A stretch of DNA of 64,000 nt, from assembly GCA_041660505.1 (NCBI GenBank), contig JBAZWG010000001.1, forward strand, positions 609,768 to 673,767, read 5' to 3'. This document shows, piece by piece, positions 5,406 through 30,014 of this stretch. The notes below the pieces were generated by a model that was not told where the DNA came from, searched no databases, and saw nothing but the letters and a program-made list of their open reading frames with translations. Positions within the stretch are counted from its first letter, which is position 1; each line of letters starts with the position of its first letter. The DNA is from Minisyncoccota bacterium (lineage in GTDB: Bacteria; Patescibacteriota; Minisyncoccia; Phycocordibacterales; JACRKE01). Made by a program: the position numbers and the translations under genes.

Positions 5406-6953
5406 TCAGACCGTCGACGGATACTTCTGCTCCACGTCTCGATCGTGGAGTTGTTTGATGATTTCTTCGATCGCCCCATACTGCTCGGGTGAGACCGTCG
5501 AGACGTTCGGGGTTATGATCAGGGGCTCCTCGCACGTTTCGTGGTAGCCCCAATCTGGGTGTACCCCGAACTTCTGCTTCAACGACCGGAAGGCCGCCAC
5601 CGTGAACTTCCCGATTATCCATCGGGCAATGTCCTCGATGTTCTGGTTCTTCCGAAAGCTGAACTGCGGGTACTGCGTCGTGAGCTCTAGGATGAAGTCG
5701 CCCGGCGTCCGTGTTCTCGTCTGCCCGAGCTGGCGAGCGCACGACCAGATCTTCGCAATCTTCAAGTTCTGGTCCCTTTTGCCGACCATTCGGCGAATGA
5801 GGACCAGATAGTAGATCCCGATCTGAACAACCCGATTGTACGTCGGGGTGCTGAACGACACACCCTTGTCTTCCGCCACCTGCTTCACCTCGCGGTGCAG
5901 GATCTTGTTCGTGTGGTAGACGTGCTTCCAGTAACGGAAGGTGTCCACCCCGAACATTGTCCTGGCCCGGCCTGCTGCGTGGATGATGCCGTTACAGCAG
6001 GAGAGGAATCCCTCCGGAGTGAAGAAGAGTGCGTGCTTCGTGAGAAGCGCGTGGTTCTGGTCGATATCCCTACAGTTCATGTAGTGGACGATGTCCCAGA
6101 TCTTGAGCTTTTCCACGCCGTCCGCGTCGACGCCGAGCTCGGCCGCAACCACCCAGATGTTCGTCACCTGGGGGCCGCAGACTATGTCCTTGTCGGTGAG
6201 GGGCAGTTCGGCCCAGAGGATTCGCTCAACGAGCCTGATGGAAATGGCTTTCAGTTCCTCTTCCGACAGCCACTCTGGTGGCGGAATAACCCTGAGCACG
6301 ATCAAGTAGACATAGATCTTCAAAAACAGCCTTGCGACTCCTCCTTTGTATCCAGTCTGCTTGACCTTGAAGCGGGCCGTTTCGTCCGATTCTCCCTTCT
6401 TGCGAGTGGGGAAGCGGATGTCGACCACCGCCGTTTCGATCGCCTCCCTCATCTCCTTGTTGGGGATCTGGGGGATGCTGTCGACGACCAGCTTGGTCGG
6501 TACCTCGCGGTACGTTCCAAACTTGATCTCCTCTTCTGGAACGACAACGACAGAGAGCCCCTTGACCTGCTCGATGACCTTCTTGGCGAAGGCCTCTTCA
6601 GGTTTGTCGGTGCTTTCCTCTTCTTCCTCCGAAGGCATCGCCGGCGTCTTCAGGCCGGAGTCGTGTGCCATTTCCCGAAGAAGGTTGAACGAGCAACTCA
6701 TGATCCTTCGGATCTCTTCCTGGATCTCGGTGGGGAGATTGCAGGCCCGCATATCCCGGAGGACAATGCGGATGAGACAGAGAAAGCGTGCGAACAACCC
6801 GAAGGTGTTCCGCGCCTTCTTCATCCCGTCAACGATGATCTCCTTGTACTCGTCAAACTTGTGGACGAGCTTCCAGCGCGTTTCGTCTGGATAGATGTAT
6901 CGTCGTTCCGAGTCCATTTCTACCTGATTAACCTCTGTTTCCGTGGTTCCCAT
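5406..6953 (-). CDS. hypothetical protein (515 aa), GC-rich
   Basis: Long ORF with codon-biased GC-rich composition and no recognised motif; GGGAAC hexamer repeats at its start codon. Confidence 0.6.
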   Translation of the reverse strand: MGTTETEVNQVEMDSERRYIYPDETRWKLVHKFDEYKEIIVDGMKKARNTFGLFARFLCLIRIVLRDMRACNLPTEIQEEIRRIMSCSFNLLREMAHDSGLKTPAMPSEEEEESTDKPEEAFAKKVIEQVKGLSVVVVPEEEIKFGTYREVPTKLVVDSIPQIPNKEMREAIETAVVDIRFPTRKKGESDETARFKVKQTGYKGGVARLFLKIYVYLIVLRVIPPPEWLSEEELKAISIRLVERILWAELPLTDKDIVCGPQVTNIWVVAAELGVDADGVEKLKIWDIVHYMNCRDIDQNHALLTKHALFFTPEGFLSCCNGIIHAAGRARTMFGVDTFRYWKHVYHTNKILHREVKQVAEDKGVSFSTPTYNRVVQIGIYYLVLIRRMVGKRDQNLKIAKIWSCARQLGQTRTRTPGDFILELTTQYPQFSFRKNQNIEDIARWIIGKFTVAAFRSLKQKFGVHPDWGYHETCEEPLIITPNVSTVSPEQYGAIEEIIKQLHDRDVEQKYPSTV

Positions 6954-7090
6954 GGTTCCCTCCTAGGTTCCCGGTTCCCGTTCCCGTATTCCTTTTTTGC
7001 CTATTTATTTGCCAAAGACCGATACACTGCCTATTTTTAGGCTAGGTTGACATGCTAGCATAAATTAGAGCTGTTTCCCAGAGAAATTAT

Positions 7091-7119
7091 TTGCATAATC
7101 GTCAAATTAGTGCTATTAT
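7091..7119 (+). promoter_or_regulatory. promoter TTGCAT-N17-TATTAT (extended TGc -10) for rnc
   Basis: -35 at 7091-7096 and -10 at 7114-7119 preceded by TGC; the RBS GGAAGG precedes the ATG at 7172. Confidence 0.5.
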
Positions 7120-7171
7120 ACAAAGTAATATTCGATTCCAGAAACGCTGTTTGAAAAAAGGAAGGTGATTA

Positions 7172-7870
7172 ATGTCCGAAACCAGAGAAGAGTTGCAGGT
7201 GCGGCTCGGCATCAAGTTCAATAATCCAGAGTTGCTGGCCGAGGCCCTTCGGCACAAGTCAGTCTCGCCACTCGGCAAGAAAAACAAACCGCAACCGCCG
7301 TATGAACGACTCGAATTCTTCGGCGACGCTGTGATTGACTACGTCGTGAGCAAGCGCCTTTTCCGGCGAAGCCCGCCACTGTCTCAAGGGCGCATGACCC
7401 AGGCGTTCACGAGCCTCGCTTCGCGTATGGCGCTTGGTGAGCTGGCAGAGGAAATAGACCTCTTCCCTCACATCGAGTTCTGCCCTGGCTTTGGCGACAA
7501 CATGTCTATCGAGTTGAGACATAATGTCGTCGGGGACGTCTATGAGGCTCTCGTCGGTGCCATCCACGAGGACCAGGGCTTCGAGACTGCTGAGAATTTC
7601 GTCGAACGCACGGCCATGGCGAAACTCGATGAACTGCTCGCCGGCAAGAACCTTCTCGACCACAAGAACCAGCTTTCTCGGTTCTTGCAGGGTCGTCATC
7701 ACAAGAGAGTCTACCCAGAGTACCAGCTCATCGGGCGTAAGTCTGATGGCGTCTACGTCTCTCAAGTGAGTCACGACGGCAAGAACCTCGGCCAAGGCGA
7801 AGGCAAGACCCAGACCGCCTCAGAGCTCAATGCCGCCAAGGAGGCGCTCGAGATTCTCAAGAAGCGGTAG
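7172..7870 (+). CDS. rnc: ribonuclease III
   Basis: RNase III signature ERLEFFGDAV; DVYEALVGAI; C-terminal dsRBD-like region. Confidence 0.85.
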   Translation: MSETREELQVRLGIKFNNPELLAEALRHKSVSPLGKKNKPQPPYERLEFFGDAVIDYVVSKRLFRRSPPLSQGRMTQAFTSLASRMALGELAEEIDLFPHIEFCPGFGDNMSIELRHNVVGDVYEALVGAIHEDQGFETAENFVERTAMAKLDELLAGKNLLDHKNQLSRFLQGRHHKRVYPEYQLIGRKSDGVYVSQVSHDGKNLGQGEGKTQTASELNAAKEALEILKKR

Positions 7871-7957
7871 CGGATTCACATCCGCTCGGAAATCTACACG
7901 ATTCGTTCGTGGGAAAACATCCGGGTGGGTGTTTTCTTTTTCCTATAAAAAAATTAT

Positions 7958-7986
7958 TTGCTGTTAAGTTTTGCCTGTGTTATAAT
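7958..7986 (+). promoter_or_regulatory. promoter TTGCTG-N17-TATAAT
   Basis: Consensus spacing; sits upstream of the small basic ORF, which has RBS GGAAGGAG. Confidence 0.5.
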
Positions 7987-8075
7987 CATGAACTTCGCAA
8001 ACGCGAGGTGCTCAAAGTACGGCACCCGCGTCCGCGGAGTGTTATGTTCTTTGAGCTGAATGGAAGGAGAATGCC

Positions 8076-8294
8076 ATGTCTCTCACTCAACGGGAGTTCA
8101 GGAAGAACCTCGTCAAGGCCAAGAAGGCCAAGAGGATTCGGAAAATCAAGGAGAAGAGGCGCGCTTTGCGCGCTAAGAATGGCCAGCCGTCGCCGAATGG
8201 CGTGAAGCCTGCACGGGTGTCGCTCCCGCACATGAGCGACACCCTGCCTGTGCCGGCGGCCATGTTGGCTCAGCCGGCCCAGTCCGACCAGTGA
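8076..8294 (+). CDS. small Lys/Arg-rich basic protein (hypothetical)
   Basis: 72-aa ORF with a good RBS, followed by a hairpin plus T-run terminator at about 8307-8400. Confidence 0.5.
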   Translation: MSLTQREFRKNLVKAKKAKRIRKIKEKRRALRAKNGQPSPNGVKPARVSLPHMSDTLPVPAAMLAQPAQSDQ

Positions 8295-8306
8295 CCTTCC
8301 TAGTTC

Positions 8307-8400
8307 AGCAGTTCGCACCCCCGGGTGATTTTAATCTCGCGACTCACAGCGCGGGAGAGGGACACCGGGGGTGTTTCTTTTTTCTCCGGAATTTTCAAGA
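8307..8400 (+). terminator. intrinsic terminator (GCACCCCCGGGTG...CACCGGGGGTG plus T-run)
   Basis: Long GC stem followed by TTTCTTTTTTCT. Confidence 0.55.
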
Positions 8401-8546
8401 TTAGTCTTTTTCCGAAATTTGTTTTCTTATTTTTAAAACCGTTAGCGCGTTACTTTTTTTGTGTTAGACTCCGCATGATACAGAGACCAACTACTGAAAC
8501 AGACACGCGCCTTTGAACGGTGCATTTGACAAGGAGGAATGACAGC

Positions 8547-9404
8547 ATGAGCAATGGAACGTTGGTTGATCCAGTGAGTCCAGAAGAGTACCACCGGGCG
8601 AGGCAGAAGTTGCAAGAATTCTTTACCAAGAAGGGTCTCACCTGGGCGGTCGCTCAGCAGAGGCTCTCAATTCTCTCGGCCTGCGAGAACCATCTCTCCA
8701 TCGCGCTCCACGCATTTGCCGGCCAGACCTGGCCACTCCATCAGACGAACCAGATGGAGTTGGAAAAGATGCTCTTGGAGAACCAGGGGTCGACGGGCTA
8801 TTTCTGCGACACGACCTCGTATCGCGAGGAACCGACCCCCAAGAAGGGCAGGCACAACCTGATCTTCCCTATGGTGGAGTTCGAGCTCCCAGGGAACTTC
8901 GAGGTGCTCCTGGCCTTCCTGCAGGATCTCGTCCAGCACCTCGGATTCGTCAAGGCGCCGGCCCCCGTCGTTGACTACCGCGACTACGCCAAGAAGTGCG
9001 GAGTCGAGGAGCTCGGCGATGAACACGAAACCCAACTCTTCCGCGAGCTCGGTCCGGTCGTGATGCTCGTCGACTTCCCGATGAGCACCTCGCCGTTCTG
9101 GAACATGCGGCTCGACGGCGGTCCCGGCGAAAAGATCGCACGAAAGTGCGACGTCATCGTCTGCGGACAGGAGACGATCGGTAGCGCCGAGCGCTCTTGC
9201 GATCCCGAGCAGATGCGGAAGTCCTTCCGTGCAGTCTCTGGTGGAGACTACGCGAGGACGCTCTTCGCACGCTTCTGCAGCGGGCGGGTCCTGGAGGAGT
9301 TGGAAGACTTCCTCTCGCTTCCGTTCTTCCCGCGCTGTGGCGGAGGAATCGGGATGACCCGGCTCATCCGGGCTACACGGATGGTCGGCCTCATTGACAA
9401 GTAG
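8547..9404 (+). CDS. class II aminoacyl-tRNA synthetase catalytic-core paralog (EpmA/AsnA-like, no anticodon-binding domain)
   Basis: Class IIb motif 2 YREEPTPKKGRHNLIFPMVEFEL and motif 3 GGGIGMTRL; about 285 aa, so the catalytic core only; RBS AAGGAGG 8 nt before the ATG at 8547. Confidence 0.65.
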   Translation: MSNGTLVDPVSPEEYHRARQKLQEFFTKKGLTWAVAQQRLSILSACENHLSIALHAFAGQTWPLHQTNQMELEKMLLENQGSTGYFCDTTSYREEPTPKKGRHNLIFPMVEFELPGNFEVLLAFLQDLVQHLGFVKAPAPVVDYRDYAKKCGVEELGDEHETQLFRELGPVVMLVDFPMSTSPFWNMRLDGGPGEKIARKCDVIVCGQETIGSAERSCDPEQMRKSFRAVSGGDYARTLFARFCSGRVLEELEDFLSLPFFPRCGGGIGMTRLIRATRMVGLIDK

Positions 9405-9420
9405 TACGGTCAACCTAGAA

Positions 9421-9455
9421 CCGGCTCCCTTCGTTCGCGAAGGGAGCCGGTTTCG
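9421..9455 (+). terminator. hairpin terminator CCGGCTCCCTTC-GTTCGC-GAAGGGAGCCGG followed by TTTCG
   Basis: Perfect 12-bp stem right after the aaRS-like gene. Confidence 0.55.
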
Positions 9456-9468
9456 CGTCTGCCTAGCA

Positions 9469-9512
9469 TTAGAAGGTTCAACCTTTTTGATGCTTAAGGT
9501 TGAACCTTCTTG
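9469..9512. repeat. AAGGTTCAACCTT / AAGGTTGAACCTT double-palindrome hairpin element (family copy a)
   Basis: Arms AGAAGGTTCAACCTT and AAGGTTGAACCTTCT are perfect reverse complements. Confidence 0.7.
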
Positions 9513-9583
9513 TGCGTTATAAAACGAAAAGGGGATCGCGACCTTGCGGTTGCGACCCCCTTTTGAACCAGATGAAAGCAGGA

Positions 9584-10189
9584 TTACTTCTTGCCCTTGC
9601 CGACGTCCATACTCACGGGGATGTCGGCTTCGCAGAACGAGCACTCCTCCGATGCCCATGAGTCGAGAGTGATGTTCACTAGCGACTCAAGCCTCGGCGC
9701 GCCAATATCGAAAGCGGTGACGCCTCCGCGATTGCAGATAGCGCCCACGCCCACGACCTCGCCGCCGATGGCGCGGACGACCTCGACGACCTTCTTCACC
9801 GAGCCGCCGGTCGTCAGGACATCCTCGACGACGAGCACTGTCTTGCCAGCCACGATCTTGTCGTAACCGCGCTTCACTACGAACCCGCCGTCGGCCGACT
9901 TCTCGGCGTAGACACTCATTGCGTCTGAGTGTACGAGCTCCGAGAGTTGATAGGCCACCCATTGGGAGAGGATGAGCCCGCCCATCGCGGGCCCGACGAC
10001 CACCTGCGGTCGTTCTGCCAAGAAGCGGCCGGCCAGGTACAGGCAGAGCTCGCCCGTCAACCTAGGATGCACGTAAATCGCATCCTTGTTGATGTACCTG
10101 TTGCCGTGCCGGCCACTTGTGTAGACGAAGTGGCCCTCGAGTAAGGCACCCACTGCCTTGATCTTCTCCATGACACTGACTTCTTTCAT
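9584..10189 (-). CDS. pyrE: orotate phosphoribosyltransferase
   Basis: PRTase motif VLVVEDVLTTGGS; start set at MKEVSVMEKIKAV, since the ORF track start is further upstream. Confidence 0.78.
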   Translation of the reverse strand: MKEVSVMEKIKAVGALLEGHFVYTSGRHGNRYINKDAIYVHPRLTGELCLYLAGRFLAERPQVVVGPAMGGLILSQWVAYQLSELVHSDAMSVYAEKSADGGFVVKRGYDKIVAGKTVLVVEDVLTTGGSVKKVVEVVRAIGGEVVGVGAICNRGGVTAFDIGAPRLESLVNITLDSWASEECSFCEADIPVSMDVGKGKK

Positions 10190-10205
10190 GAGACCTCCTT
10201 GCGGG

Positions 10206-11021
10206 TCATGATCGGTATCGGTTGATTGCGTCATGCAGTCGCTGCGTCTCGCGTCGCGCCGCCTCTGCGAAGTTCTGTCCGCCACCGGCGAAGATGATGC
10301 TCCGTGAGGCGGCAATGATCATGCCTTGACCCCGCGAGTCTTTGCCAGCAGCGACGGTCGCTTCGAGATCTCCGCCTTGCGCGCCGATACCCGGGACGAG
10401 GATTGGCATGTCGCCGACAATCTTGCGCACGGCGCGCAGTTCGTCGGGATATGTTGCGCCGACGACCACGGCACAGTTGCCGTTCTCGTTCCATGCGCAT
10501 GCAACGTTCAGGGCGACCACTCGGTAGAGCGGCACGCCGCCGACGAGCAGATTCTGGAATTCGCCGGCGCCGACATTTGACGACCTGCAGACGATTATAC
10601 AACCCTTGTCCTTCTGGGCGAGGAATGGCTCGAGAGCCTCCTTGCCGAAGTAAGGGTTCAGGGTGACGGCGTCGGCGTGCAGGTATCCGAACGCTTGCTC
10701 GACGTAGCCGACATTGGTGTTGCCAATGTCGGCGTACTTGGCGTCCAAGATGATCGGCACCTCGGGGGCGATGGCATTCGCCTCCGAGACGGTGTGATAG
10801 AGCGCGAGGATGCCCTCGATGCCTTGTGCCACGTAGAAGGCCAAATTGACTTTGTACGCGCAGACGAGGTCGCTGGTGTGCTCGATGATGGCGCGGTTGA
10901 ACGCGCGAATCCTATCGAGCTTCGACGGGTACTTGACCTCCGCCGGGATCTTGCCGAGCTCGCTGTCGAGTCCGACGCAGACGCTCTTGCCTTGCTCCCA
11001 CCGAGCCTTGAGCATCTCCAT
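10206..11021 (-). CDS. pyrF: orotidine 5'-phosphate decarboxylase (long type 2 form)
   Basis: ILDAKYADIGNT matches the OMPdecase DxKxxDIxNT motif; about 270 aa from MEMLKAR. Confidence 0.75.
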   Translation of the reverse strand: MEMLKARWEQGKSVCVGLDSELGKIPAEVKYPSKLDRIRAFNRAIIEHTSDLVCAYKVNLAFYVAQGIEGILALYHTVSEANAIAPEVPIILDAKYADIGNTNVGYVEQAFGYLHADAVTLNPYFGKEALEPFLAQKDKGCIIVCRSSNVGAGEFQNLLVGGVPLYRVVALNVACAWNENGNCAVVVGATYPDELRAVRKIVGDMPILVPGIGAQGGDLEATVAAGKDSRGQGMIIAASRSIIFAGGGQNFAEAARRETQRLHDAINRYRS

Positions 11022-11164
11022 GAAGTTTCTGGTCTTCAAATTCTGCCTCGCTTTCACTTGGTTCAATGAACAGTATGAGCCGGACTATCCGGCTCAAAAT
11101 CTCCTTGACACTATCAAAAATATAGTTAGAAATCAAGCTCGAAAATTTGCGGGAAATTATTTTT

Positions 11165-11210
11165 AAAACAAAAACAGGATGCCGGCTACAGAGAGCTTGC
11201 ATCCTGTTCG
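11165..11210 (-). terminator. intrinsic terminator after pyrD (CAGGATGC..GCATCCTG plus TTTTTGTTTT on the minus strand)
   Basis: 8-bp stem, T-run on the minus strand. Confidence 0.5.
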
Positions 11211-11230
11211 AGCGAACATTACCGGACGAG

Positions 11231-12124
11231 TCATTCGTCGGTGAGTTCGCTAAGGATCGATGAGAATATGGTCTCGCCCCGCTCCAGATAAGCGGTGGCG
11301 ATTTGCACGGCCGAGGCACCGGCCAAGATGTACTCGCGCACGCCGGTGCTATGGATAATGCCGCCGACGCCTATGAGTTGCTGGGTGCTCGGCAGGAGCG
11401 CACGCAGTTGCCTGACCTGCCCCAGGCCGATAGGCTTTAGTGCCGGGCCGGCCATGCCCGCGAGTCCTCCGGCTGGAGTGATTCGTGGCGCTTCACCATT
11501 GAGGCCGAAGGCGTTGGGAAAGGTGTTGACGGTTGTGACCGCCTTCACCAACTTCGACTTGCCGATCACCTCCGCCACTTGCGCAAGTTGGAAAGGGTCG
11601 GAGTAAGGCGAAACCTTACACGCGATCTTCGCCTCGGCTCCGACCCACGTTTCTACCTGTCGCAAGATGTTCGCAACAAGCACGGGGTCGAAGCAGGCAA
11701 TCCGCTTCTGCATCCCGCCCTGCCAGACGTTGGGACAGCCGAGGTTGAGCTCGACCATGTCGGCCCCGCCGGCGAAGGCGATCTTAGACATTATCGCGTA
11801 CTCCTCGGCCGAGAAGCCGGCGATACTCACGAAGAGTGGCTTGCCATGCGCATGTGCCTCCGCCACCATCGCGGGCAGTTTGAGCCCATAGTACTCTATC
11901 CCTCTATTCGGCAAGCCGAGAGAGTTTAGCGAGTAATCTGACTCTACCCAGTACACGTTGCCACCGTTGCCTTGACGAGGCTCCATGGTGATAGAGCCGA
12001 CCATGATGGCCGCGGTGGCAGAACGGGCGAGCTGGCTTACCTCCTCCAGCAGCCGGCAGGTACCCGCCGCGTTCATGAGCGGGTGCTCAAGCGGGATACC
12101 GGCGAGCGTAGTTTCAAAGTTCAT
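11231..12124 (-). CDS. pyrD: dihydroorotate dehydrogenase, class 1
   Basis: ELNLGCPN motif and TIM-barrel FMN-binding profile; RBS AAGGAGG before the ATG. Confidence 0.82.
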   Translation of the reverse strand: MNFETTLAGIPLEHPLMNAAGTCRLLEEVSQLARSATAAIMVGSITMEPRQGNGGNVYWVESDYSLNSLGLPNRGIEYYGLKLPAMVAEAHAHGKPLFVSIAGFSAEEYAIMSKIAFAGGADMVELNLGCPNVWQGGMQKRIACFDPVLVANILRQVETWVGAEAKIACKVSPYSDPFQLAQVAEVIGKSKLVKAVTTVNTFPNAFGLNGEAPRITPAGGLAGMAGPALKPIGLGQVRQLRALLPSTQQLIGVGGIIHSTGVREYILAGASAVQIATAYLERGETIFSSILSELTDE

Positions 12125-12217
12125 GTGACCTCCTTAAGGTCTTTTTTTGTGCTCGTTATTCTCTTTATGCTGTATGTAAGTTAACAAATATGACCTGTTT
12201 TATCAACACAAAAAAAC

Positions 12218-12246
12218 TTGCATAAAGACGCAATCTGTGCTATTAT
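12218..12246 (+). promoter_or_regulatory. promoter TTGCAT-N17-TATTAT (gTGcTATTAT extended -10), same architecture as the rnc promoter
   Basis: Exact spacing; followed by a 110-nt leader and RBS GAGGAGGG before the ATG at 12355. Confidence 0.5.
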
Positions 12247-12354
12247 CCATACCAGCTTGCTACCGTCCCTGATTACTTCAGGGTATGTTGCGGGAGCAAA
12301 TGAGACAGAACGCCCCAGAAAAATCTAGAGCGTTTTGTGTTTAGAGGAGGGACA

Positions 12355-12555
12355 ATGTCCTCGGTCTTCCACCCTACGGATCTGCTCGTCTTTCCCGCGC
12401 ATACCGAGCATGCGCGGCTGATTCTGCTCGCAGTTTGCGAGCATGAGGACGAGAAGATCCACTTCGAGGCGGCTCGGGCCGCAGACGTTCCCGTGCTTGT
12501 CGCGCTCTGCGACGTGTACGGGATTCCCCACACGGTCCAGCAGGAGGTGAGGTAA
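12355..12555 (+). CDS. small hypothetical protein, first of a coupled pair
   Basis: RBS plus ATG at 12355; stop overlaps the next ATG (TAAGATG). Confidence 0.4.
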   Translation: MSSVFHPTDLLVFPAHTEHARLILLAVCEHEDEKIHFEAARAADVPVLVALCDVYGIPHTVQQEVR

Positions 12556-19205: not shown

Positions 19206-21512
19206 CTATAATGAACCGCCGCCGGAATCTGACGTTGGGTCGAAGTATTCGTATTCGGCTGTGGCGGTGCTGGTGCCGACTGCATTGGCCATATAGCCAC
19301 GTACCCAATACTCCACATCTACCGGATGTGTGAAGTCTATATACTGCCAGTCATCGGCGGGGTCTCCCCATATTGGCTCGGTTGCAAGCGGGAGAAAGGT
19401 TGGTCCATTAGGCCCCTCTGTGCTGTATCTAAGTTCCGCATAAGTGAGAGGATTACTACCGATTTCTGGCGACGCGAAGAGTCTATCGCCACGATGCATA
19501 ATCCCGGCATCGTCTTCGTAAGAGAAATAATAAATATCTGTAGGGGCGTTAGGGACTACACCGGGTATCATTGCGATCACATTGGACGCGGTACTCGTCC
19601 CGGCGTTGTTTATTGCGAAAACTTTGAACGAATATTGCGTGCCGTTCGCGAGTTCGGTTATGAGATAACCTGTTGTGGTGCCTGTGCCGTCAACAAGAAT
19701 GTCATCATTGCTCGTGAACCCATCTGTGCTCTTGTGAATTTCGTAATCCGTTAATTCTCCGCCGTCATCCGCTGGTGCTGACCAAGCGAGCGAAGCGCTT
19801 GCGTTGCCCCGTGTGGCGGTTAAACTTTGCGGCGCGCTTGGTGCGACTATCGGGCTTACCGGTGTTGCTGTCACAATGTCTGACGCCGAGCTCGTGCCCG
19901 CGCGATTGATAGCAAAAATTTTGAAATAATAAGCCGTACTATTTGTGAGCCCGGCGACGAGCGTACTTGTGGCGATACTGACACCGTCATCAAGTGTTGT
20001 ATCCGTTTCAGAAAAATTATCGGTGCTCTCGTGAATTTCGTAATCGGTAATCGGAGCATCGGTAACTTCAGTCGGAGAGAGCCATGAGAGTAATACAGTC
20101 GCATCACCGGCAACAGCGAGCGGCGAGAGCGGCGCGCTAGACGTTGCATATGTCGGATCCGGTTCGGGTTCGGGCTCTGATGGCGGAGGTTTAACCTCCG
20201 CAATAGGGACGCCGGTACCGCCACCGCCGAAACCGGGCGAGAGAATTTGAAATACGCTCGTTATCGAGGCTGTCGGTTTTGGCAATTCTGCTTTCGGCGC
20301 CTCTGTCTTCACGGCAGGAGGTGCCGGTTCCACCGGCTTTTTCGGCATCGCACGTAACTCTGCGTGCTGTTCGCGCAGACCGATCGCGCGGTCTTGCAGA
20401 CTTTGTATCTGGCGCACGAGAGCGTCGGTTTCTGCTTGAGTCAGTGTGCGCGGCGGTTGCGGGGCGGGTGCTACTTGGACGATAGCTTTCGGCGTCAGAC
20501 CCGTCACGAACATCGTTTCTTTATGCGGTATAGGAATAATGATAGGCGTCGGTTTGCCGAGTATCGCGATAGTGAAGGCGGAAGCAACTGTGTAGAGCGC
20601 CCCGCCAACCCCCTTTGCTATTGCCGATGTTGTGGTTATTACTGCATTCGCGCTGTCACCGACGGTCTTCATGCCTAAGTTGGCCAGAGGGTCCGCGACA
20701 ACGAAAACGAGGCTCTGGACTTTATGCACGAGCGAGAGTTCCGGTGGGTCGATGCACTTTTTGTCTGGTGCTTGCACATCGTTCGGCTTTAATTTATCCA
20801 AGGACTTCTGAATGGCCGAGACGATTTCTGCTCCGCGATATTTGAGATAGACAGTGGCGAAGCCGTGGCCGGTCTCGTCCCTCTCAAACTCGAGATCGAT
20901 GTGCGTGTTGGGCGCCATTATAGTACGTGAAAGGGTAGAATTGACGATGCCTGCGATGACTTTATCGGTGTCGGAGGTGAGCCATTGCCCTCCGCCGGCT
21001 ACGCGGGATGACGGCGTGGCAACACTGTACACGCCAATGGACTGTGGCGGAACATCCGGCCCCTCCCCAGCCCTCCCCGAAGGAGAGGGAGATGATGCCG
21101 TAACTTTGTCATAAAAGCTGTTGGCATAAAAATTGCCCTGTGAATGGGCAACGAGGAGGAGCTTTTGCGTTGTTACTTTCTGACTCGCGGAGTTCAGTAT
21201 CTCCGTCAAGTCATAATCGCTCACGACCTCGTCGTCAAAGTACTTCTGATTTGCGGCATCCAAAATATCCTTAACCCCGGCAAGGTTGGTGTCGTTGAGG
21301 AGATATTGATAATCCAGACGTTCGTTTTTATAAGAAAGACCTAGAGTATCCCTAAGTGCTTTCATGTTTACTCTAGCTCCAGCGTCGTCTGTAAAAACAC
21401 CGTTGACGGTTGCTACAGTGTATCCATCTTTCGTGCATTGGGTAACTACCGAGGCAAGAACAAAATTTGGTAGTAAACAGATACCTAAGATTAAGCCTGT
21501 TTTAACATTCAT
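19206..21512 (-). CDS. secreted alpha/beta-hydrolase (lipase/esterase-like) with two C-terminal fibronectin type III domains
   Basis: Signal peptide MNVKTGLILGICLL; nucleophile elbow LLLVAHSQGNF (GxSxG type); two Fn3-like repeats (LxWSAPADDGGELTDYEIH...YSFKVFAIN); start set at the internal Met with the signal peptide. Confidence 0.6.
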   Translation of the reverse strand: MNVKTGLILGICLLPNFVLASVVTQCTKDGYTVATVNGVFTDDAGARVNMKALRDTLGLSYKNERLDYQYLLNDTNLAGVKDILDAANQKYFDDEVVSDYDLTEILNSASQKVTTQKLLLVAHSQGNFYANSFYDKVTASSPSPSGRAGEGPDVPPQSIGVYSVATPSSRVAGGGQWLTSDTDKVIAGIVNSTLSRTIMAPNTHIDLEFERDETGHGFATVYLKYRGAEIVSAIQKSLDKLKPNDVQAPDKKCIDPPELSLVHKVQSLVFVVADPLANLGMKTVGDSANAVITTTSAIAKGVGGALYTVASAFTIAILGKPTPIIIPIPHKETMFVTGLTPKAIVQVAPAPQPPRTLTQAETDALVRQIQSLQDRAIGLREQHAELRAMPKKPVEPAPPAVKTEAPKAELPKPTASITSVFQILSPGFGGGGTGVPIAEVKPPPSEPEPEPDPTYATSSAPLSPLAVAGDATVLLSWLSPTEVTDAPITDYEIHESTDNFSETDTTLDDGVSIATSTLVAGLTNSTAYYFKIFAINRAGTSSASDIVTATPVSPIVAPSAPQSLTATRGNASASLAWSAPADDGGELTDYEIHKSTDGFTSNDDILVDGTGTTTGYLITELANGTQYSFKVFAINNAGTSTASNVIAMIPGVVPNAPTDIYYFSYEDDAGIMHRGDRLFASPEIGSNPLTYAELRYSTEGPNGPTFLPLATEPIWGDPADDWQYIDFTHPVDVEYWVRGYMANAVGTSTATAEYEYFDPTSDSGGGSL
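21061..21092. repeat. GC-rich palindromic element copy, in-frame in the minus-strand hydrolase gene
   Basis: CCCTCCCCAGCCCTCCCCGAAGGAGAGGGA; its reverse-complement reading frame gives SPSPSGRAGEGP in the protein. Confidence 0.75.
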
Positions 21513-21513
21513 T

Positions 21514-22122
21514 TTAGTTAGGCAGTGTGGTTGGTTGTATGTCACACCCACCGTCAGATGGCCCCCCGCTTTGTAAATTATTGTTGATAAGGTCTTTAAG
21601 ATATTTAGTTCTTGCTGTTGAGTTAAGCTGAAGTTTTTCAACAAAGCTTCTGTATTTATTTACATCAGCAATAAATTTTGTCATATCGGATCGCGAACTA
21701 AGACTCCACAAACATACATCTGCGTGGCCTTCTAAATCCTCAATTGTCGCCGAAACTGTTCCTCCGTTCACAAGCTGTAGCGTCATTTCGGTTTGTAATG
21801 CTAAGGCATACTGAAGAAGTGGAGAACGTATCTTGGCACTATCGGGATAGGTTTGGAATATTGCCAGTTCGACGTCGTCGCGGATGCCGTTTTTGTTGGC
21901 GTCTACGCCAGCAATAGTTGCATCCGGCGAGGCGGGGACAGGCGGCAAATTTTTACCCATTACATCATTCAGTGTAAGCTTGGTCGCATGGATGCGCGCA
22001 ACTTGCACGGCTGTCTGCTTGGCTCGTTCGAGCACGTACATTCTGTAGAAGACCAACACCGCGAACAGCACAAAAATAACCGTCCCCGCTCGGGAAAGGT
22101 AAGTTGTAAGAGATTTTTTCAT
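21514..22122 (-). CDS. membrane-anchored hypothetical protein
   Basis: N-terminal TM helix; ORF abuts the downstream hydrolase gene (operon). Confidence 0.5.
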   Translation of the reverse strand: MKKSLTTYLSRAGTVIFVLFAVLVFYRMYVLERAKQTAVQVARIHATKLTLNDVMGKNLPPVPASPDATIAGVDANKNGIRDDVELAIFQTYPDSAKIRSPLLQYALALQTEMTLQLVNGGTVSATIEDLEGHADVCLWSLSSRSDMTKFIADVNKYRSFVEKLQLNSTARTKYLKDLINNNLQSGGPSDGGCDIQPTTLPN

Positions 22123-24316: not shown

Positions 24317-24380
24317 TTCTCGCCTAGGCCGGTCTGTCATACGGCGGCCTTTTTTGCTATACTGTCGTCGTCAGAATTAT

Positions 24381-25154
24381 ATGAAAAAGTGGGAAATAGT
24401 CGTGGAAAAGTTTCTTGATGAATGGCGGGACAAGCCGGAGGTTTTAGGCGCTATTGTCGGAGGCAGTCATGCGGTGGGGAATGAGACGGACCTTTCGGAC
24501 ATTGATCTTCAGGTGGTTTTGAAAAACGATATTCCGTGGAGAGACCGAGGGCTTACATGCATCGATGGAATTATTATTGAATATTTCCTTGTACCTATAG
24601 GAAACTATAAAATCTATTCCGAGCAGGGAATCAACAGAGACCAGATCAAAGTAGATGCCAGAATATTTTCGACCGGAAAGGTTGTATTAGACAAAGACGG
24701 CAGTATGGCAGAACTGGTCAAAGAAGCTTATGAGAAATTGAAGAAAGAATTTCCCGTCTATCCGGACGAGGCAAAAGCCTTGATGCAAAAACACCTTTGG
24801 GACACGCATGATCATTTGGAAGAATACACTAAATATCCCTCACCGATGTTCGGTATCCTATACGGCATTTTACTGAATGATATTCTAGAATTCTACGCGC
24901 GAGTTACTCGCACGGAAAGATTGCCTTTAGAAAGAGCCCATAAATTGATTACAAATGAAGTCTATAGAGAAAGATATGGATTCCCAAGAGTATCAGACAA
25001 AAAATTCGAGACACTTCTACTGTCGGCGATAGAAAAGCAAGATTTCGCAAATATTGATGCGCTCTATACCTATGCCCAAGAACTCGGTGGGGGCTTCGAC
25101 CAGTGTAATTGGTATTTAAGACGGAAATCACTGGTGCAAGTGGTGAATAAATAA
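24381..25154 (+). CDS. Pol-beta-type nucleotidyltransferase domain protein (ANT/KNTase-like fold)
   Basis: LGAIVGGSHAVGNETDLSDIDLQVV is the GS...D.D nucleotidyltransferase motif. Confidence 0.58.
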   Translation: MKKWEIVVEKFLDEWRDKPEVLGAIVGGSHAVGNETDLSDIDLQVVLKNDIPWRDRGLTCIDGIIIEYFLVPIGNYKIYSEQGINRDQIKVDARIFSTGKVVLDKDGSMAELVKEAYEKLKKEFPVYPDEAKALMQKHLWDTHDHLEEYTKYPSPMFGILYGILLNDILEFYARVTRTERLPLERAHKLITNEVYRERYGFPRVSDKKFETLLLSAIEKQDFANIDALYTYAQELGGGFDQCNWYLRRKSLVQVVNK

Positions 25155-25176
25155 TAATGATTGATATTGCGCCGGA

Positions 25177-26112
25177 TTGCTAGTATTATGTCTGATATTC
25201 ATGTCTTGGTTACTCATTGCCCTTATTGGGCCTATACTCTACGCTGTCGCTAATCATATCGATAAGCATGTTATCGAGCGATACTTGAAGGGAGGGGTCG
25301 CAGGCGCACTTATAATATTTTCATCCCTCTTCAGTATCGTGGCGTTGCCGGTGCTTACTTACTTCGAGCCGTCGGTACTTGATGTTACTCTTTTGCAGGG
25401 GGTTTACCTTGCTCTGAACGGCATGCTCGTCGTGTTTGCCTTCCTCGCTTATTTCTACGCGCTCACTTATGATGAAGCATCATATGTTGTCCCATGGTAT
25501 CAGACCATACCGATCTTCGGATTCATTCTCGGCTATTTTATATTAGGCGAGAAAATTTCCCAGACTCAAGCTCTGGCGTCCGCATTCATTCTCGCCGGTG
25601 CAATAATTCTATCGCTCGACTTCGGCGGCAAAAAGATGCACTTTAAACGCGAGGTTGCTTTCCTTATGCTCGGCGCCTCGCTACTTTATGCAATCAATGG
25701 AGTTGTATTTAAAGTTATTGCAACCGACGCCGGTTTCTGGGTCAGCGTATTCTGGGGGCTCGTGGGCAAAGTTATCCTTGGCTTCGCCTTCCTCGCCTTC
25801 ATTCCCTCATATCGCAATCAATATTTATACTTGTTACGACATAGCGGTTTGACAGTACTGGGCTTTAATTCTTTAAGCGAATTTCTCTCGATGATTGCAG
25901 AAGCGGCCATGCAATATGTGACCCTGCTTGTACCCGTCGGGATAGCGCTTCTTGCCAACTCGTTCCAGCCATTCTTCGTTCTTATTATCGGTAGTCTCAT
26001 CGCATTCTTCTGGCCGAGCAAAGAGGCCGAATCGCTCCGAGCCGGCAAAATGACCCAAAAAGTTGTAGGCATAGCCATTATGGTCCTGGGGAGCTATCTG
26101 ATCGGGGTATAA
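25177..26112 (+). CDS. DMT/EamA-like multi-TM transporter
   Basis: About 10 predicted TM helices in a two-fold repeat architecture. Confidence 0.5.
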   Translation: MLVLCLIFMSWLLIALIGPILYAVANHIDKHVIERYLKGGVAGALIIFSSLFSIVALPVLTYFEPSVLDVTLLQGVYLALNGMLVVFAFLAYFYALTYDEASYVVPWYQTIPIFGFILGYFILGEKISQTQALASAFILAGAIILSLDFGGKKMHFKREVAFLMLGASLLYAINGVVFKVIATDAGFWVSVFWGLVGKVILGFAFLAFIPSYRNQYLYLLRHSGLTVLGFNSLSEFLSMIAEAAMQYVTLLVPVGIALLANSFQPFFVLIIGSLIAFFWPSKEAESLRAGKMTQKVVGIAIMVLGSYLIGV

Positions 26113-26160
26113 AAGATTTTATTTGCGATGATTTTTAAATCCTAGTATACTGTCCTCACT

Positions 26161-26550
26161 ATGCATTTTGGCGAACATCTGATGATTGACGGTTATGGTG
26201 GCGACACGGAACTTTTGAATTCCGAGGCACTCGTCCGTAAAATTCTGACAGAATTACCAGTGCAGTTAGGGATGCAAACTTTGGCGGCACCCGTAATAAT
26301 TTCTGCTCCCGACAACGATAAAAAAGACCCCGGTGGCTGGAGCGGCTTCGTCGTTATTGCCGAGAGTCATGTGAGTATTCATACTTTTCCCAAGCGCGGT
26401 TTCGTCAGTATCGATGTGTACACCTGTAGGAATGGACTCGATATTGAAACTATCAAAGCCTATTTCACCGGCTCATTCGCGCTCGCCGAACTCGAGACCA
26501 ACTTCGTCTTACGCGGTAAGAAGTATCCGCAACAAAACATTCATGCATGA
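26161..26550 (+). CDS. speH: S-adenosylmethionine decarboxylase proenzyme (small pyruvoyl type)
   Basis: Self-cleavage motif AESHVSIHTFPK...SIDVYTCRNG matches ESHxxIHTWPE...FTCG; 129 aa. Confidence 0.78.
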   Translation: MHFGEHLMIDGYGGDTELLNSEALVRKILTELPVQLGMQTLAAPVIISAPDNDKKDPGGWSGFVVIAESHVSIHTFPKRGFVSIDVYTCRNGLDIETIKAYFTGSFALAELETNFVLRGKKYPQQNIHA

Positions 26551-27479
26551 CAGAGCTTCCAGCCTTTCCCGAATTTAAGCAGATAGAGCTGGCAGACCGA
26601 TCGTCGGTAGAAAAACTGACAGAAAAATTTCCGCCATATTCAGACTTTCATTTCTCCAGTTTGTATTCTTGGGACATCAACAAAAAAATGGGATTATCCG
26701 TGCTGAACGGCAATCTGGTGGTTTTGTTCAATGATTATATTTCCGGAAGTTTTTTCCTGACATTTATTGGAGATTCAAAGATTTCTGAAACAGCCTCCAT
26801 ACTGCTAGATTTTTCAAAACAGAATGGTTATGAAAGCTCCCTAAAACTTATTCCCGAAGAAATGGCAAAAGTATTGTCGGAAACAGGATTCTCTGTAGAG
26901 CCCGATGCCGGAGCTCATGATTACATCTATTCGATTGAACGTCTCGCAAACATGGAAGAATGGAGTAAGAGCACACAAAAGAAGCAGATCAGAAAATTTA
27001 TGGATACGAACCCTCAGTACTCCGCTCGGATATTACCCACTAAGGAATTAGACAAACGAGAATACCTCGAACTTTTTAAACAATGGGCAACCAACAAAAA
27101 TCTCCTTGATCACACGGAGTTGAACGAGTATAAAGCCTTTAGCCGGCTTCTGGCCGAAAACAATGGCGATGTTGAAATGTTGTCTATATATAGCGACGAG
27201 TCGTGTAAAAAAATGATCGGATTTACATCGTTTGAAACGATATCCGATGACTACGCCATAGCGCATTTTTCTAAAGCCGATATTAAGCATCACGCCGCAA
27301 TTTACTGCGTTTTGATATGGGAAGAGGCGAAATATCTTCAGAAAAAGGGTATAAAGCACTACAATTGGGAACAGGACCTGGATATACCTGGACTACGCAC
27401 TTTCAAAATGTCCTACAAGCCGGAATTTTTCTTAAAGCAGTACACGGTGAGTTTACCTGTGTTGTCGTCACAATCGTAG
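26547..27479 (+). CDS. hypothetical 310-aa protein translationally coupled to speH; AT-rich; not spermidine synthase
   Basis: ATGA overlap with the speH stop; no SpeE GGGDGG motif. Confidence 0.55.
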   Translation: MTELPAFPEFKQIELADRSSVEKLTEKFPPYSDFHFSSLYSWDINKKMGLSVLNGNLVVLFNDYISGSFFLTFIGDSKISETASILLDFSKQNGYESSLKLIPEEMAKVLSETGFSVEPDAGAHDYIYSIERLANMEEWSKSTQKKQIRKFMDTNPQYSARILPTKELDKREYLELFKQWATNKNLLDHTELNEYKAFSRLLAENNGDVEMLSIYSDESCKKMIGFTSFETISDDYAIAHFSKADIKHHAAIYCVLIWEEAKYLQKKGIKHYNWEQDLDIPGLRTFKMSYKPEFFLKQYTVSLPVLSSQS

Positions 27480-27504
27480 CCAACCTCGTATTAAATAGCC
27501 CCAA

Positions 27505-28617: not shown

Positions 28618-28674
28618 ACAAAAAGGCTGGCTCCCTAGAAACCCAGGAACCAGCCAAACTCCTCATCCTTTCTG

Positions 28675-29931: not shown

Positions 29932-29951
29932 GGATAACCTCCGTTATTATG

Positions 29952-29988
29952 GATCGAGGGTGGAAGCTATACGCTTCCACCCTCGATC
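29952..29988 (-). promoter_or_regulatory. perfect 16-bp stem-loop (GATCGAGGGTGGAAGC-TATA-CGCTTCCACCCTCGATC) between precursor ORF and maturase
   Basis: No U-run on the transcribed strand, so more likely an attenuator or processing/stability hairpin than a full terminator. Confidence 0.6.
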
Positions 29989-30014
29989 TTCTTCGAGTCA
30001 ACGACAGTTAGTTG

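What the first reader, a model, noticed from the sequence alone, without database searches (positions are those of the whole stretch)
8547..9404. Stand-alone class IIb aminoacyl-tRNA-synthetase catalytic core without anticodon-binding domain
Motif 2 (YREE...RH...F.M.EFE) and motif 3 (GGGIGMTRL) of the Asp/Asn/Lys-type synthetases are present in a protein of only about 285 aa. Known paralogs of this type are EpmA/PoxA, which lysylates EF-P, the ammonia-dependent asparagine synthetase AsnA, and archaeal AsnA-like enzymes. Either would be notable inside a GC-atypical island of a reduced genome.
Basis: partly seen in the sequence, partly recalled or inferred. Interest (0 to 1): 0.55.

Follow-up and report, generated by a model that had tools for sequence, protein, structure and literature searches.

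The report
Orphan AsnRS-like enzyme tied to pyrimidine synthesis
The gene encodes a real, catalytically intact tRNA-synthetase-like enzyme with no tRNA-anticodon domain; it belongs to a large uncharacterised family that travels with, and is sometimes fused to, the last enzymes of uridine nucleotide synthesis, so it may be an unknown way of making the pyrimidine ring precursor.

Summary
Window 8547-9404(+) encodes a 285-aa stand-alone class IIb aaRS catalytic core with intact motifs 2 and 3, inside a GC-rich island (5406-12124) of a Paceibacterota (CPR) genome.

The protein belongs to a large unnamed family: more than 4000 proteins, 270 clusters at 50% identity. Members occur in CPR, DPANN, Rickettsiales, Pasteurellaceae, Bacteroidota, giant viruses and phages. 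Every ATP-, Mg- and amino-acid-binding residue is invariant.

Its context is pyrimidine synthesis:
- pyrE, pyrF and pyrD lie directly downstream in the window.
- About 35-40% of cellular loci carry pyrD/E/F within 5 kb, in different gene orders and with different PyrD classes.
- PyrD-X fusions recur, and one X-PyrF fusion exists.
- carB, pyrB and pyrC never appear nearby.

Best reading (about 0.55): an adenylate-forming ligase that supplies dihydroorotate to PyrD. The proposed chemistry, Asn + CO2 + ATP, is inferred and untested.

Rivals are an asparagine synthetase and a tRNA-Asn-directed enzyme. One phage clade carries an odd tRNA-Asn(GUU)-like gene right after the gene. I found no publication on this family.

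The parts
8547..9404 (+). CDS of the stand-alone AsnRS-like class IIb catalytic core ('X'), 285 aa plus stop
8531..8537 (+). Shine-Dalgarno-like AAGGAGG, 9 nt upstream of the ATG at 8547
   Evidence: Read from the sequence. It supports ATG 8547 over GTG 8520 as the start.
9418..9454 (.). GC-rich inverted repeat (GAACCGGCTCCCTTCG...CGAAGGGAGCCGGTTTC) in the 180-bp convergent spacer between X and pyrE; two further hairpins follow up to 9583
   Evidence: Read from the sequence. The simple terminator scan did not call it, so a terminator role is inferred.
9584..10189 (-). pyrE, orotate phosphoribosyltransferase, convergent with X (the start is taken at the internal ATG; the maximal ORF reaches 10315)
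   Evidence: Pfam Pribosyltran 2.4e-14. NCBIfam pyrE_Therm 148.4 bits against a cutoff of 150.25.
10206..11066 (-). pyrF, OMP decarboxylase
   Evidence: Pfam OMPdecase 1.8e-26. NCBIfam pyrF_sub2 211 bits, above the cutoff of 110.6.
11231..12124 (-). pyrD, dihydroorotate dehydrogenase, class 1A-like
   Evidence: Pfam DHO_dh 9.7e-44. Best NCBIfam hit is 'dihydroorotate oxidase' PRK02506 at 194 bits, below its cutoff of 301.
5406..12124 (.). Compositional island carrying orf515, rnc, orf72, X, pyrE, pyrF and pyrD
   Evidence: GC 0.56-0.61 and GC3 0.72-0.81 inside the block, against GC 0.47-0.54 and GC3 0.48-0.63 in flanking genes.

Best explanation
X is an active adenylate-forming enzyme, not a pseudogene or a regulatory relic. 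It descends from the AsnRS branch of class IIb synthetases and has lost the anticodon-binding domain. It belongs to a large family that has no name in the libraries searched.

It works with dihydroorotate dehydrogenase (PyrD), orotate phosphoribosyltransferase (PyrE, or a mini-PRTase here called c6) and OMP decarboxylase (PyrF). Its most likely job is to supply PyrD with dihydroorotate in genomes and viruses that do not rely on carbamoyl-phosphate synthetase, aspartate transcarbamoylase and dihydroorotase.

Shown here:
- The fold, and the conserved ATP, Mg and amino-acid site of AsnRS type.
- The recurrent neighbourhood with pyrD, pyrE and pyrF.
- Fusions to PyrD and to PyrF.
- Arrival of X with pyrEFD in one compositional island in this window.

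Inferred:
- That the product is dihydroorotate.
- My preferred chemistry. Asn is bound and adenylated on its alpha-carboxylate, as in AsnRS. The alpha-amine, carbamylated by CO2, attacks the mixed anhydride to give the N-carboxyanhydride. The side-chain amide N then attacks C2 and closes the six-membered ring. The net reaction is Asn + CO2 + ATP -> dihydroorotate + AMP + PPi.
- A less favoured sub-variant: AsnA-like beta-carboxyl adenylation of N-carbamoyl-aspartate followed by intramolecular ring closure, that is, an ATP-driven dihydroorotase analogue.
For: (1) Catalytic integrity. Q66, T67, Q69, R93, E95, R102, H103, F107, E111, E113, D202, E209 and R216 are identical in 157 of 157 homologues from cells and viruses; R272 is identical in 156 of 157, the exception being an alignment gap. 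These map onto AspRS E171, QSPQ, R217, D475, E482, R489 and R537.

(3) Neighbourhood.
- In the window, pyrE, pyrF and pyrD follow directly.
- In 77 cellular loci, PyrD is nearby in 18, PyrF in 22 and PyrE-like in 25, almost all within 5 kb. A random single-copy gene would be within 5 kb in about 1% of loci or fewer.
- Gene orders differ. Examples: X-pyrF-c6-pyrD-prs in Midichloriaceae; pyrD<>X-pyrF-c6 in Pasteurellaceae; UMPS<>pyrD-X in Bacteroidota; UMPS<>X-pyrD in a giant-virus-like contig.
- PyrD classes differ: 1A, 2 and a divergent type. The association therefore arose or was kept many times.

(4) Fusions.
- PyrD-X fusions: P0122, P0292, P0299, P0301 and P0303. P0122 is on 7 contigs and P0299 on 6.
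- One X-PyrF fusion, P0150. In L178 it sits beside a PRTase and a DHO_dh gene, so all four activities lie within 3.3 kb.

(5) Missing early steps. carB, pyrB and pyrC were not found by tblastn in the 64-kb window, in 83 cellular loci or in 80 viral loci.

(6) Giant viruses. A virus of a eukaryote encodes PyrD-X next to thymidine kinase. The host CAD protein already contains dihydroorotase. This favours a substrate upstream of, or outside, the CAD route (inference).

(7) Island. X and pyrEFD share one GC3-rich island in this genome.
Against: - No biochemical datum exists. The product and substrates are inferred from context only.
- Most CPR loci (about 34 of 40) and most viral loci (about 70 of 79) carry X with no pyr gene within 10 kb.
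- In one phage clade, including cyanophages P-SSM2 and P-SSM7, X is followed at once by a tRNA-Asn(GUU)-like gene. That points to asparagine or tRNA biology and is not explained by the model.
- I could not check whether X-bearing genomes really lack carAB, pyrB and pyrC elsewhere.
- The N-carboxyanhydride route has chemical precedent only outside enzymes (my own knowledge).
- The AsnRS-type pocket is equally compatible with an AS-AR-like flipped aspartate.
Confidence: 0.55

Rival explanations
1. X is an ammonia-dependent asparagine synthetase of the archaeal AS-AR kind. It adenylates the beta-carboxylate of aspartate and amidates it with NH3, giving amino-acid-poor symbionts and AT-rich viruses their asparagine.
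For: - Two motif variants resemble E. coli AsnA: 'ACE(D/N)' against 'GCEK', and 'GGGIG.TRL' against 'GGGIGQSRL'.
- In a phage clade the gene sits beside tRNA-Asn(GUU)-like genes, and in P-SSM7 inside a tRNA cluster.
- AT-rich viral contigs (GC 0.22-0.44) need many Asn codons read.
Against: - It does not explain the PyrD-X and X-PyrF fusions, or the repeated, differently arranged pyrD/E/F operons.
- X is no closer to AS-AR than to AsnRS.
- X occurs between pyrD and pyrF in Pasteurellaceae (L011, L015, L038). By my recollection that family normally has asnA and asnS already.
- The QSPQ-type residues are degenerate in E. coli AsnA but invariant in X.
Confidence: 0.15
2. X acts on a tRNA. Either it is a minimal AsnRS that charges tRNA-Asn or a dedicated class-II-shaped tRNA-Asn-like RNA without reading the anticodon, or it is a GluQRS-like enzyme that modifies that RNA.
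For: - In about 19 of 82 viral loci a tRNA-like gene with a GUU anticodon lies 10-170 nt downstream on the same strand. Most have a long variable arm (87-101 nt) and G73-CCA.
- AsnRS is the closest relative, and the residues that hold the alpha-amine in synthetases (E47, Q69) are invariant.
- There is precedent for core-only paralogues acting on RNA (GluQRS; PMC9437257).
Against: - The tRNA link is confined to one clade of the X tree, so it counts as about one evolutionary event.
- No such RNA lies next to X in 83 cellular loci or in the window.
- Position 33 of these RNAs is U, G, A or C, and position 37 is often U. That is odd for a decoding tRNA.
- The other known stand-alone class IIb cores (AsnA, AS-AR, EpmA) do not charge tRNA (established knowledge).
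- It does not explain the pyr fusions. In the same phage contigs X also sits by OMP decarboxylase and the mini-PRTase.
Confidence: 0.12
3. X is a non-catalytic or allosteric partner of the pyrimidine enzymes. It would be a HisZ-like regulatory subunit for PyrE/c6 or PyrD that senses Asp, Asn or ATP.
For: - Tight adjacency and fusion with PyrD, PyrF and PRTases.
Against: Every residue needed for adenylate formation is invariant across the family, including the motif 2 and 3 arginines and the Mg ligands D202 and E209. HisZ has lost its counterparts (established knowledge).
Confidence: 0.06
4. X is an EpmA/PoxA-like enzyme that aminoacylates EF-P or another protein.
Against: - No EpmA model hit.
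- Pocket residues are of AsnRS type, not LysRS type.
- No efp or epmB in the window, and EF-P nearby in only 2 of 83 loci.
Confidence: 0.02

Closest known systems
Canonical asparaginyl-tRNA synthetase (AsnRS; e.g. PDB 1X54, 8TC8, 2XTI)
   Different: No OB-fold anticodon-binding domain. No match to any asnS equivalog model. Only about 20% identity. Family-specific invariant residues: C46, W62, F184-W185-N186-M187, K200, Y235, R247, R263. Genomic context is pyrimidine synthesis, not translation.
Archaeal asparagine synthetase AS-AR ('AsnRS2' of Pyrococcus; PDB 3P8T, 1NNH)
   Different: A separate family: profile E only 7e-4, weaker than to AsnRS itself. AS-AR makes Asn from Asp + NH3 (PMC9437257). 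I know of no link between AS-AR and pyrD/E/F.
E. coli-type asparagine synthetase A (AsnA; PDB 11AS, 12AS)
   Different: No HMM or profile match. AsnA keeps the AspRS-type Gln116/Asp118, whereas X has Met109/Glu111. AsnA has lost the QSPQ motif, which X keeps.
EpmA/PoxA/GenX (EF-P lysyltransferase)
   Different: EpmA is LysRS-derived and works with EF-P and EpmB. X has no sequence-model match and no efp or epmB context.
ATP-dependent ring-closing ligases such as beta-lactam synthetase (AsnB-derived) and dethiobiotin synthetase (CO2 + ATP ureido ring closure)
   Same: These are functional analogies for the proposed chemistry. One turns an amide-forming adenylating scaffold to intramolecular ring closure; the other builds a ureido ring from CO2 and ATP (my own knowledge).
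   Different: Unrelated folds. The analogy is a lead, not a test.

Membership tests
Class IIb aminoacyl-tRNA-synthetase catalytic-domain superfamily (Pfam PF00152) | Match to the tRNA-synt_2 model with motifs 2 and 3 and their arginines | tested here: met
Canonical AsnRS | N-terminal OB-fold anticodon-binding domain | tested here: not met
   The 285-aa protein is covered entirely by the catalytic core. The model starts with the motif 1 helix.
Canonical AsnRS | Match to a curated asnS equivalog model | tested here: not met
   NCBIfam returns only a 13-bit hit to AspRS-ND.
Canonical AsnRS | Asn-type amino-acid pocket: no Lys198 equivalent, Glu and Arg pair present | tested here: met
   L72-E73, M109/E111 and R216 align with the AsnRS residues. 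The role of these residues is recalled from published structures, not tested here.
Canonical AsnRS | Charges tRNA-Asn | not testable with these tools
   There is only a contextual hint: tRNA-Asn-like genes lie next to X in one phage clade.
EpmA/PoxA/GenX | Match to EpmA models; LysRS-type pocket | tested here: not met
   No NCBIfam hit. hhalign E 6.7e-3, probability 5.7%. Pocket is of AsnRS type.
EpmA/PoxA/GenX | Genomic association with efp and epmB | tested here: not met
   None in the window. EF-P lies within 10 kb in 2 of 83 loci, and EpmB in none. The rest of the genome could not be searched.
AsnA (E. coli type) | Match to AsnA models; Gln116/Asp118-type residues | tested here: not met
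   No hit. hhalign E 0.015. X has Met109/Glu111.
Archaeal AS-AR | Stand-alone AsnRS-derived core of about 290 aa | tested here: met
Archaeal AS-AR | Closer to AS-AR than to AsnRS (orthology) | tested here: not met
Archaeal AS-AR | Asp + NH3 + ATP -> Asn activity | not testable with these tools
   Needs an enzyme assay.
HisZ-like regulatory aaRS paralogues | Loss of catalytic residues | tested here: not met
   All catalytic residues are invariant.

The most novel reading that the evidence does not exclude
X is a previously unrecognised dihydroorotate synthetase. This single 280-aa AsnRS-derived enzyme would make the pyrimidine ring precursor directly from asparagine, CO2 and ATP, via Asn-AMP and an N-carboxyanhydride. 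In some phages the asparagine might come from a dedicated Asn-tRNA-like carrier.

It would replace carbamoyl-phosphate synthetase, aspartate transcarbamoylase and dihydroorotase. Together with PyrD, a PRTase and PyrF it would form a four-gene, carbamoyl-phosphate-independent route to UMP. That route would be used by CPR bacteria, DPANN archaea, intracellular symbionts, giant viruses and phages.
Probability: 0.22. Interest if true: 0.95.

Novelty: new variant of a known kind. Interest (0 to 1): 0.78.

Why it matters
De novo pyrimidine synthesis is treated as a universal six-step pathway. Its first three enzymes are large and tightly regulated, and they are often reported missing from reduced genomes that still keep pyrD, pyrE and pyrF.

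A small enzyme that supplies dihydroorotate would have several consequences:
- It would explain those 'incomplete' pathways.
- It would change metabolic reconstructions of CPR, DPANN, Rickettsiales-like symbionts and giant viruses.
- It would show how viruses can bypass host control of nucleotide supply.
- It would add a new catalytic use to the aminoacyl-tRNA-synthetase scaffold.

Even if the enzyme proves to be an asparagine synthetase or a minimal AsnRS, this is a very abundant, unnamed aaRS paralogue that current annotation mislabels as 'aspartyl/asparaginyl-tRNA synthetase', 'tRNA ligase' or even 'transposase'. The question can be tested directly with cultured sources: cyanophage P-SSM2 or P-SSM7, and Phocoenobacter.

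Tried and rejected
- Truncated pseudogene of AsnRS or AspRS. Rejected: thousands of equal-length homologues with invariant catalytic residues.
- EpmA. Rejected: no model hit, no efp or epmB context, wrong pocket.
- E. coli-type AsnA. Rejected as membership.
- A tRNA-like or other structured RNA next to X in the window. The Rfam E-value scan of 6900-12400, ARAGORN and a custom covariance model found nothing beyond tRNA-Ile at 62-136.
- Early pyrimidine genes near X. tblastn with E. coli CarA, CarB, PyrB, PyrI and PyrC found none in the window, the 83 cellular loci or the 80 viral loci. Only two partial CarA hits appeared, limited to its amidotransferase half.
- PyrD and PyrF in cultured phages that carry X. 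None found. The phage-database PyrD and PyrF hits are short unannotated records from human faecal samples or from Listeria, Enterococcus and similar hosts, with no overlap with the X-bearing records. The mini-PRTase c6 has no hit in that database.
- Prasinovirus 'asparagine synthetase' as a possible X. Could not be established from the papers read.
- Mimiviridae 'AsnRS' as X. Rejected: the viral full-length AsnRS is only 14% identical, whereas an X-like protein exists in Pithovirus LCPAC304.
- Ten literature searches found no description of this family or of its pyr link. The key AS-AR paper (PMC187858) is not held, so AS-AR active-site details rest on memory.
- The AFDB structure library was unavailable.
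Full report
**1. Observation.**
The window has an ORF at 8520-9404(+). The ATG at 8547 follows an AAGGAGG box at 8531-8537 and gives a 285-aa protein. This protein is identical to a public gene call, P0001. NCBI names it 'amino acid--tRNA ligase-related protein [Candidatus Paceibacterota bacterium]', on a 719-kb contig.
- Pfam places aa 64-274 in PF00152, the Asp/Lys/Asn class II core, at E 3e-10.
- An AlphaFold model built on 30 homologues is confident: pLDDT 92.7, pTM 0.91.
- Nothing is left over to form an anticodon-binding domain.

It is far beyond chance.

**2. What it is not.**
NCBIfam has curated models for EpmA, AsnA, AsnRS and AspRS. None matches; the only hit is 13 bits to AspRS-ND.
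- A family profile against all PDB sequences finds AsnRS first (4e-8). It finds archaeal AS-AR only at 7e-4, and neither E. coli AsnA nor EpmA.
- hhalign against the E. coli proteins ranks AsnS (2.8e-4) above EpmA (6.7e-3) and AsnA (0.015).
- No efp or epmB lies in the window, and EF-P is within 10 kb in only 2 of 83 related loci.

The protein is not a decayed synthetase either. More than 4000 database proteins of 275-300 aa match it. An exhaustive profile search counts 270 clusters at 50% identity with E <= 1e-30.

**3. Active site.**
I aligned the family with E. coli AsnS, AspS, AsnA and EpmA.
- ATP and Mg machinery: the motif 2 Arg (R93), E95, R102-H103, F107, the Mg ligands D202 and E209 (AspRS D475 and E482), and the motif 3 Arg (R272).
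- Residues that hold the alpha-amino group in synthetases: E47 (AspRS E171), and Q66 and Q69 (the QSPQ motif).
- Side-chain pocket of AsnRS type: Leu72-Glu73 where AspRS has Lys198; Met109 and Glu111 where AsnRS has Met and Glu and AspRS has Gln231 and Asp233; and Arg216 (AspRS Arg489).

All of these are identical in 157 of 157 homologues from bacteria, archaea, giant viruses and phages, except M109 (152 of 157, the rest Leu) and single alignment gaps at E47 and R272 (156 of 157). The family also has its own invariant residues: C46, W62, F184-W185-N186-M187, K200, Y235, R247 and R263. Two details resemble AsnA rather than AsnRS: a Cys-Glu pair after motif 1, and GGGIG.(S/T)RL in motif 3. This is the signature of a working adenylate-forming enzyme with an Asn- or Asp-like substrate. 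The roles assigned to the reference residues come from my memory of the published AspRS and AsnRS structures.

**4. Distribution.**
One scan of species-representative genomes found 404 loci. They come from:
- Patescibacteria (Parcubacteria, Saccharibacteria, Gracilibacteria, Absconditabacterales) and DPANN archaea;
- Rickettsiales (Midichloriaceae, Bandiella), Dependentiae and Pasteurellaceae (Phocoenobacter, Actinobacillus);
- Bacteroidota (Aureispira, Saprospiraceae, Moheibacter), Myxococcota, Kapabacteria and others.

IMG/VR holds at least 592 viral contigs with the gene, many of them giant-virus MAGs. Cultured cyanophages P-SSM2, P-SSM7 and P-SSM5 carry it as 'tRNA ligase', and so do 484-735-kb huge phages. 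BFVD shows an X-like protein in Pithovirus LCPAC304, while true viral AsnRS is unrelated at this level. A neighbour-joining tree is star-like, with 45-55% identity between groups.

**5. Context in cells.**
In the window the gene is followed, convergently, by pyrE (9584-10189), pyrF (10206-11066) and pyrD (11231-12124).

After X itself, the commonest neighbour families in 83 cellular loci are PyrE/PyrF/UMPS and PyrD. With iterated HMMs, 29 of 77 loci carry at least one of PyrD, PyrF, PyrE or a 130-aa mini-PRTase that I call c6, nearly always within 5 kb. Five further loci were missed by ORF calling but found by tblastn. Outside the CPR and DPANN the fraction is about 70%. A random single-copy gene would lie within 5 kb in about 1% of loci or fewer.

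The arrangements differ:
- Midichloriaceae and relatives: X-pyrF-c6-pyrD-prs, with 11-bp gaps.
- Pasteurellaceae: class-2 pyrD, divergent from X-pyrF-c6, with 2-3 bp gaps.
- Bacteroidota: a PRTase-OMPdecase fusion, divergent from pyrD(1A)-X.
- A 551-kb giant-virus-like contig: UMPS<>X-pyrD.

PyrD is class 1A, class 2 or a divergent short form. The link was therefore formed or kept repeatedly. tblastn with E. coli CarB, PyrB, PyrI and PyrC finds none of them in the window, the cellular loci or the viral loci.

**6. Fusions.**
The exhaustive search turned up long family members.
- P0122 (661 aa) is DHO_dh + X, and P0150 (588 aa) is X + OMPdecase.
- P0122 occurs on 7 contigs from several samples, next to a divergent 435-aa OMPdecase gene.
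- P0150 is followed by a PRTase and a DHO_dh gene, so all four activities lie within 3.3 kb.
- Four more PyrD-X fusions exist: P0292, P0299, P0301 and P0303.
- P0299 lies on a giant-virus-like contig with TBP, eIF4E, RFC-like ATPases and thymidine kinase.

Fusion with PyrD is what one expects of the enzyme that makes or hands over the PyrD substrate.

**7. The island.**
Genes from 5406 to 12124 (orf515, rnc, orf72, X, pyrE, pyrF, pyrD) have GC 0.56-0.61 and GC3 0.72-0.81. Flanking mur genes, rsmI, ribosomal protein genes, secY and map have GC3 0.48-0.64 (flank annotation). X and pyrEFD therefore share one compositional history in this genome. This fits acquisition as a module.

**8. A second signal: tRNA-Asn.**
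In P-SSM7 the gene lies in a tRNA cluster and is followed after 9 nt by a tRNA-Asn gene. P-SSM2 is alike. ARAGORN and a covariance model built from nine copies find such a gene 10-170 nt after X in about 19 of 82 viral loci.
- All have the anticodon GUU; one outlier has GUC.
- Where the 3' end is intact and the model score is high they carry G73, and CCA is encoded in most, but not in P-SSM2 or P-SSM7.
- Most have a long variable arm (87-101 nt). That is not normal for tRNA-Asn.
- Position 33 is U, G, A or C, and position 37 is often U.
- The loci belong to one clade of the X tree.
- No such RNA is next to X in cellular loci or in the window.
- In the same phage contigs X also sits beside OMP decarboxylase and c6 (L141), so the two signals coexist.
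- ThyA and ThyX are among the commonest viral neighbours.

**9. Mechanism.**
Shown: X is an intact adenylating enzyme with an AsnRS-type pocket, coupled by neighbourhood, fusion and co-transfer to PyrD, a PRTase and PyrF.

Inferred: it provides dihydroorotate. I prefer a route that uses the site as AsnRS does. Asn is adenylated on its alpha-carboxylate. The alpha-amine, carbamylated by CO2, attacks the anhydride to give the N-carboxyanhydride. The carboxamide nitrogen then attacks C2. The result is the six-membered ring with a free alpha-carboxylate, that is, dihydroorotate.
- This accounts for the invariant alpha-amine and amide-binding residues and for the absence of carAB, pyrB and pyrC near X.
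- It also accounts for a virus of a eukaryote carrying PyrD-X although the host CAD protein already contains dihydroorotase.
- The alternative is AsnA-like beta-adenylation of carbamoyl-aspartate with intramolecular closure.
- The tRNA-Asn-like RNA might be a carrier of activated Asn, or a sensor. This is speculation.

I put about 0.55 on 'supplies dihydroorotate to PyrD', and about 0.22 on the specific Asn + CO2 chemistry.

**10. Rivals.**
- Asparagine synthetase of AS-AR type (0.15). It fits the architecture and the tRNA-Asn neighbourhood, but not the fusions.
- A tRNA-Asn-directed minimal synthetase or modifier (0.12). It fits one phage clade only.
- A HisZ-like regulator (0.06). It conflicts with the invariant catalytic residues.
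- EpmA-like (0.02).

**11. Novelty.**
Ten full-text searches found no paper on this family or on its link to pyrimidine genes. A 2022 review of aaRS paralogues lists only AS-A/AS-AR and ErdS for the AspRS and AsnRS branch (PMC9437257). The library lacks most subscription journals, so prior description cannot be excluded. I file it as a new variant of a known kind: a stand-alone class IIb paralogue. If the proposed activity holds, the enzyme and the pathway would be new.

Noticed in passing
L172:8793-8879 (P-SSM7), L171:8801-8888 (P-SSM2), L120:10829-10917, L131:1203-1290, L141:3333-3427, L147:10870-10970, L167:4317-4417, L139:2742-2840, L100:10865-10966: A family of class-II-shaped (long variable arm, 87-101 nt) tRNA-like genes lies directly downstream of X in one phage clade. 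They have a GUU anticodon and G73, and most encode CCA. Position 33 is U, G, A or C, and position 37 is often U. L100 has GUC instead, and no CCA. A tRNA-Asn with a long variable arm is abnormal, and its partner and role are unknown.
   Followed up: partly
L016:9610-10023, L011:11455-11934, L073:3827-4237, L141:4114-4506(-), L169:3812-4240(-): 'c6' is a conserved mini-phosphoribosyltransferase of about 130 aa. It has an OPRTase-like N-terminal signature and a PRPP motif, but only weak hits to Pfam Pribosyltran and NCBIfam pyrE. It always sits with X and pyrF in Midichloriaceae, Pasteurellaceae and phages. It is probably a minimal orotate PRTase.
   Followed up: partly
L171 (NC_006883.2): RefSeq annotates the tRNA-Asn of P-SSM2 (locus tag PSSM2_199) at 164094-164179, inside CDS PSSM2_205. 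ARAGORN and the covariance model place the only tRNA-like gene of this 16.8-kb stretch about 2 kb upstream, right after PSSM2_198. That is also where the tag numbering puts it. The annotated coordinates look shifted.
   Followed up: partly
L173:1589-2932(-), L174:252-1595(-), L175:3120-4454(+), L175:4606-5460(+): The closest relatives of the window protein (79% and 57% identity) sit next to a conserved protein of about 445 aa. It has a CDHNC...C motif and a very weak radical-SAM hit (E 0.23). In L175 there is also a 284-aa protein whose C-terminus resembles uracil PRTase (E 0.11). Neither is present in the window.
   Followed up: partly
window 5406-6953(-) and 8076-8294(+): orf515 has no Pfam family and no homologue in any fetched locus other than the same genome. 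orf72 is a Lys/Arg-rich 72-aa ORF with its own Shine-Dalgarno box, lying between rnc and X. Both lie inside the GC3-rich island.
   Followed up: partly
window 24354-31373: A low-GC stretch (genes with GC 0.39-0.47, GC3 0.37-0.54) begins with a nucleotidyltransferase-like gene. It is a second compositionally deviant block, in the opposite direction to the X-pyr island.
   Followed up: no
window 19206-21644(-) and 47950-53184(+): An 812-aa protein with fibronectin type III repeats and a 1744-aa ORF. The latter was not analysed.
   Followed up: no
L059:3405-4664: In one Saccharibacteria contig a full-length class IIb synthetase (AsnRS- or AspRS-like, about 430 aa) lies about 1.1 kb upstream of X. 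X therefore coexists with a canonical enzyme of the same subclass there.
   Followed up: no
P0235, P0150 (protein ids): Some family members look eukaryotic, with low-complexity N-terminal or acidic C-terminal tails. P0235 is a divergent copy with changed motif residues (QTYQ, GAEKS, ISASIGISRL).
   Followed up: no
one search hit list (P0029, P0044): Two family members are named 'transposase' in NCBI and nr. This is an annotation error that has propagated in CPR MAGs.
   Followed up: no
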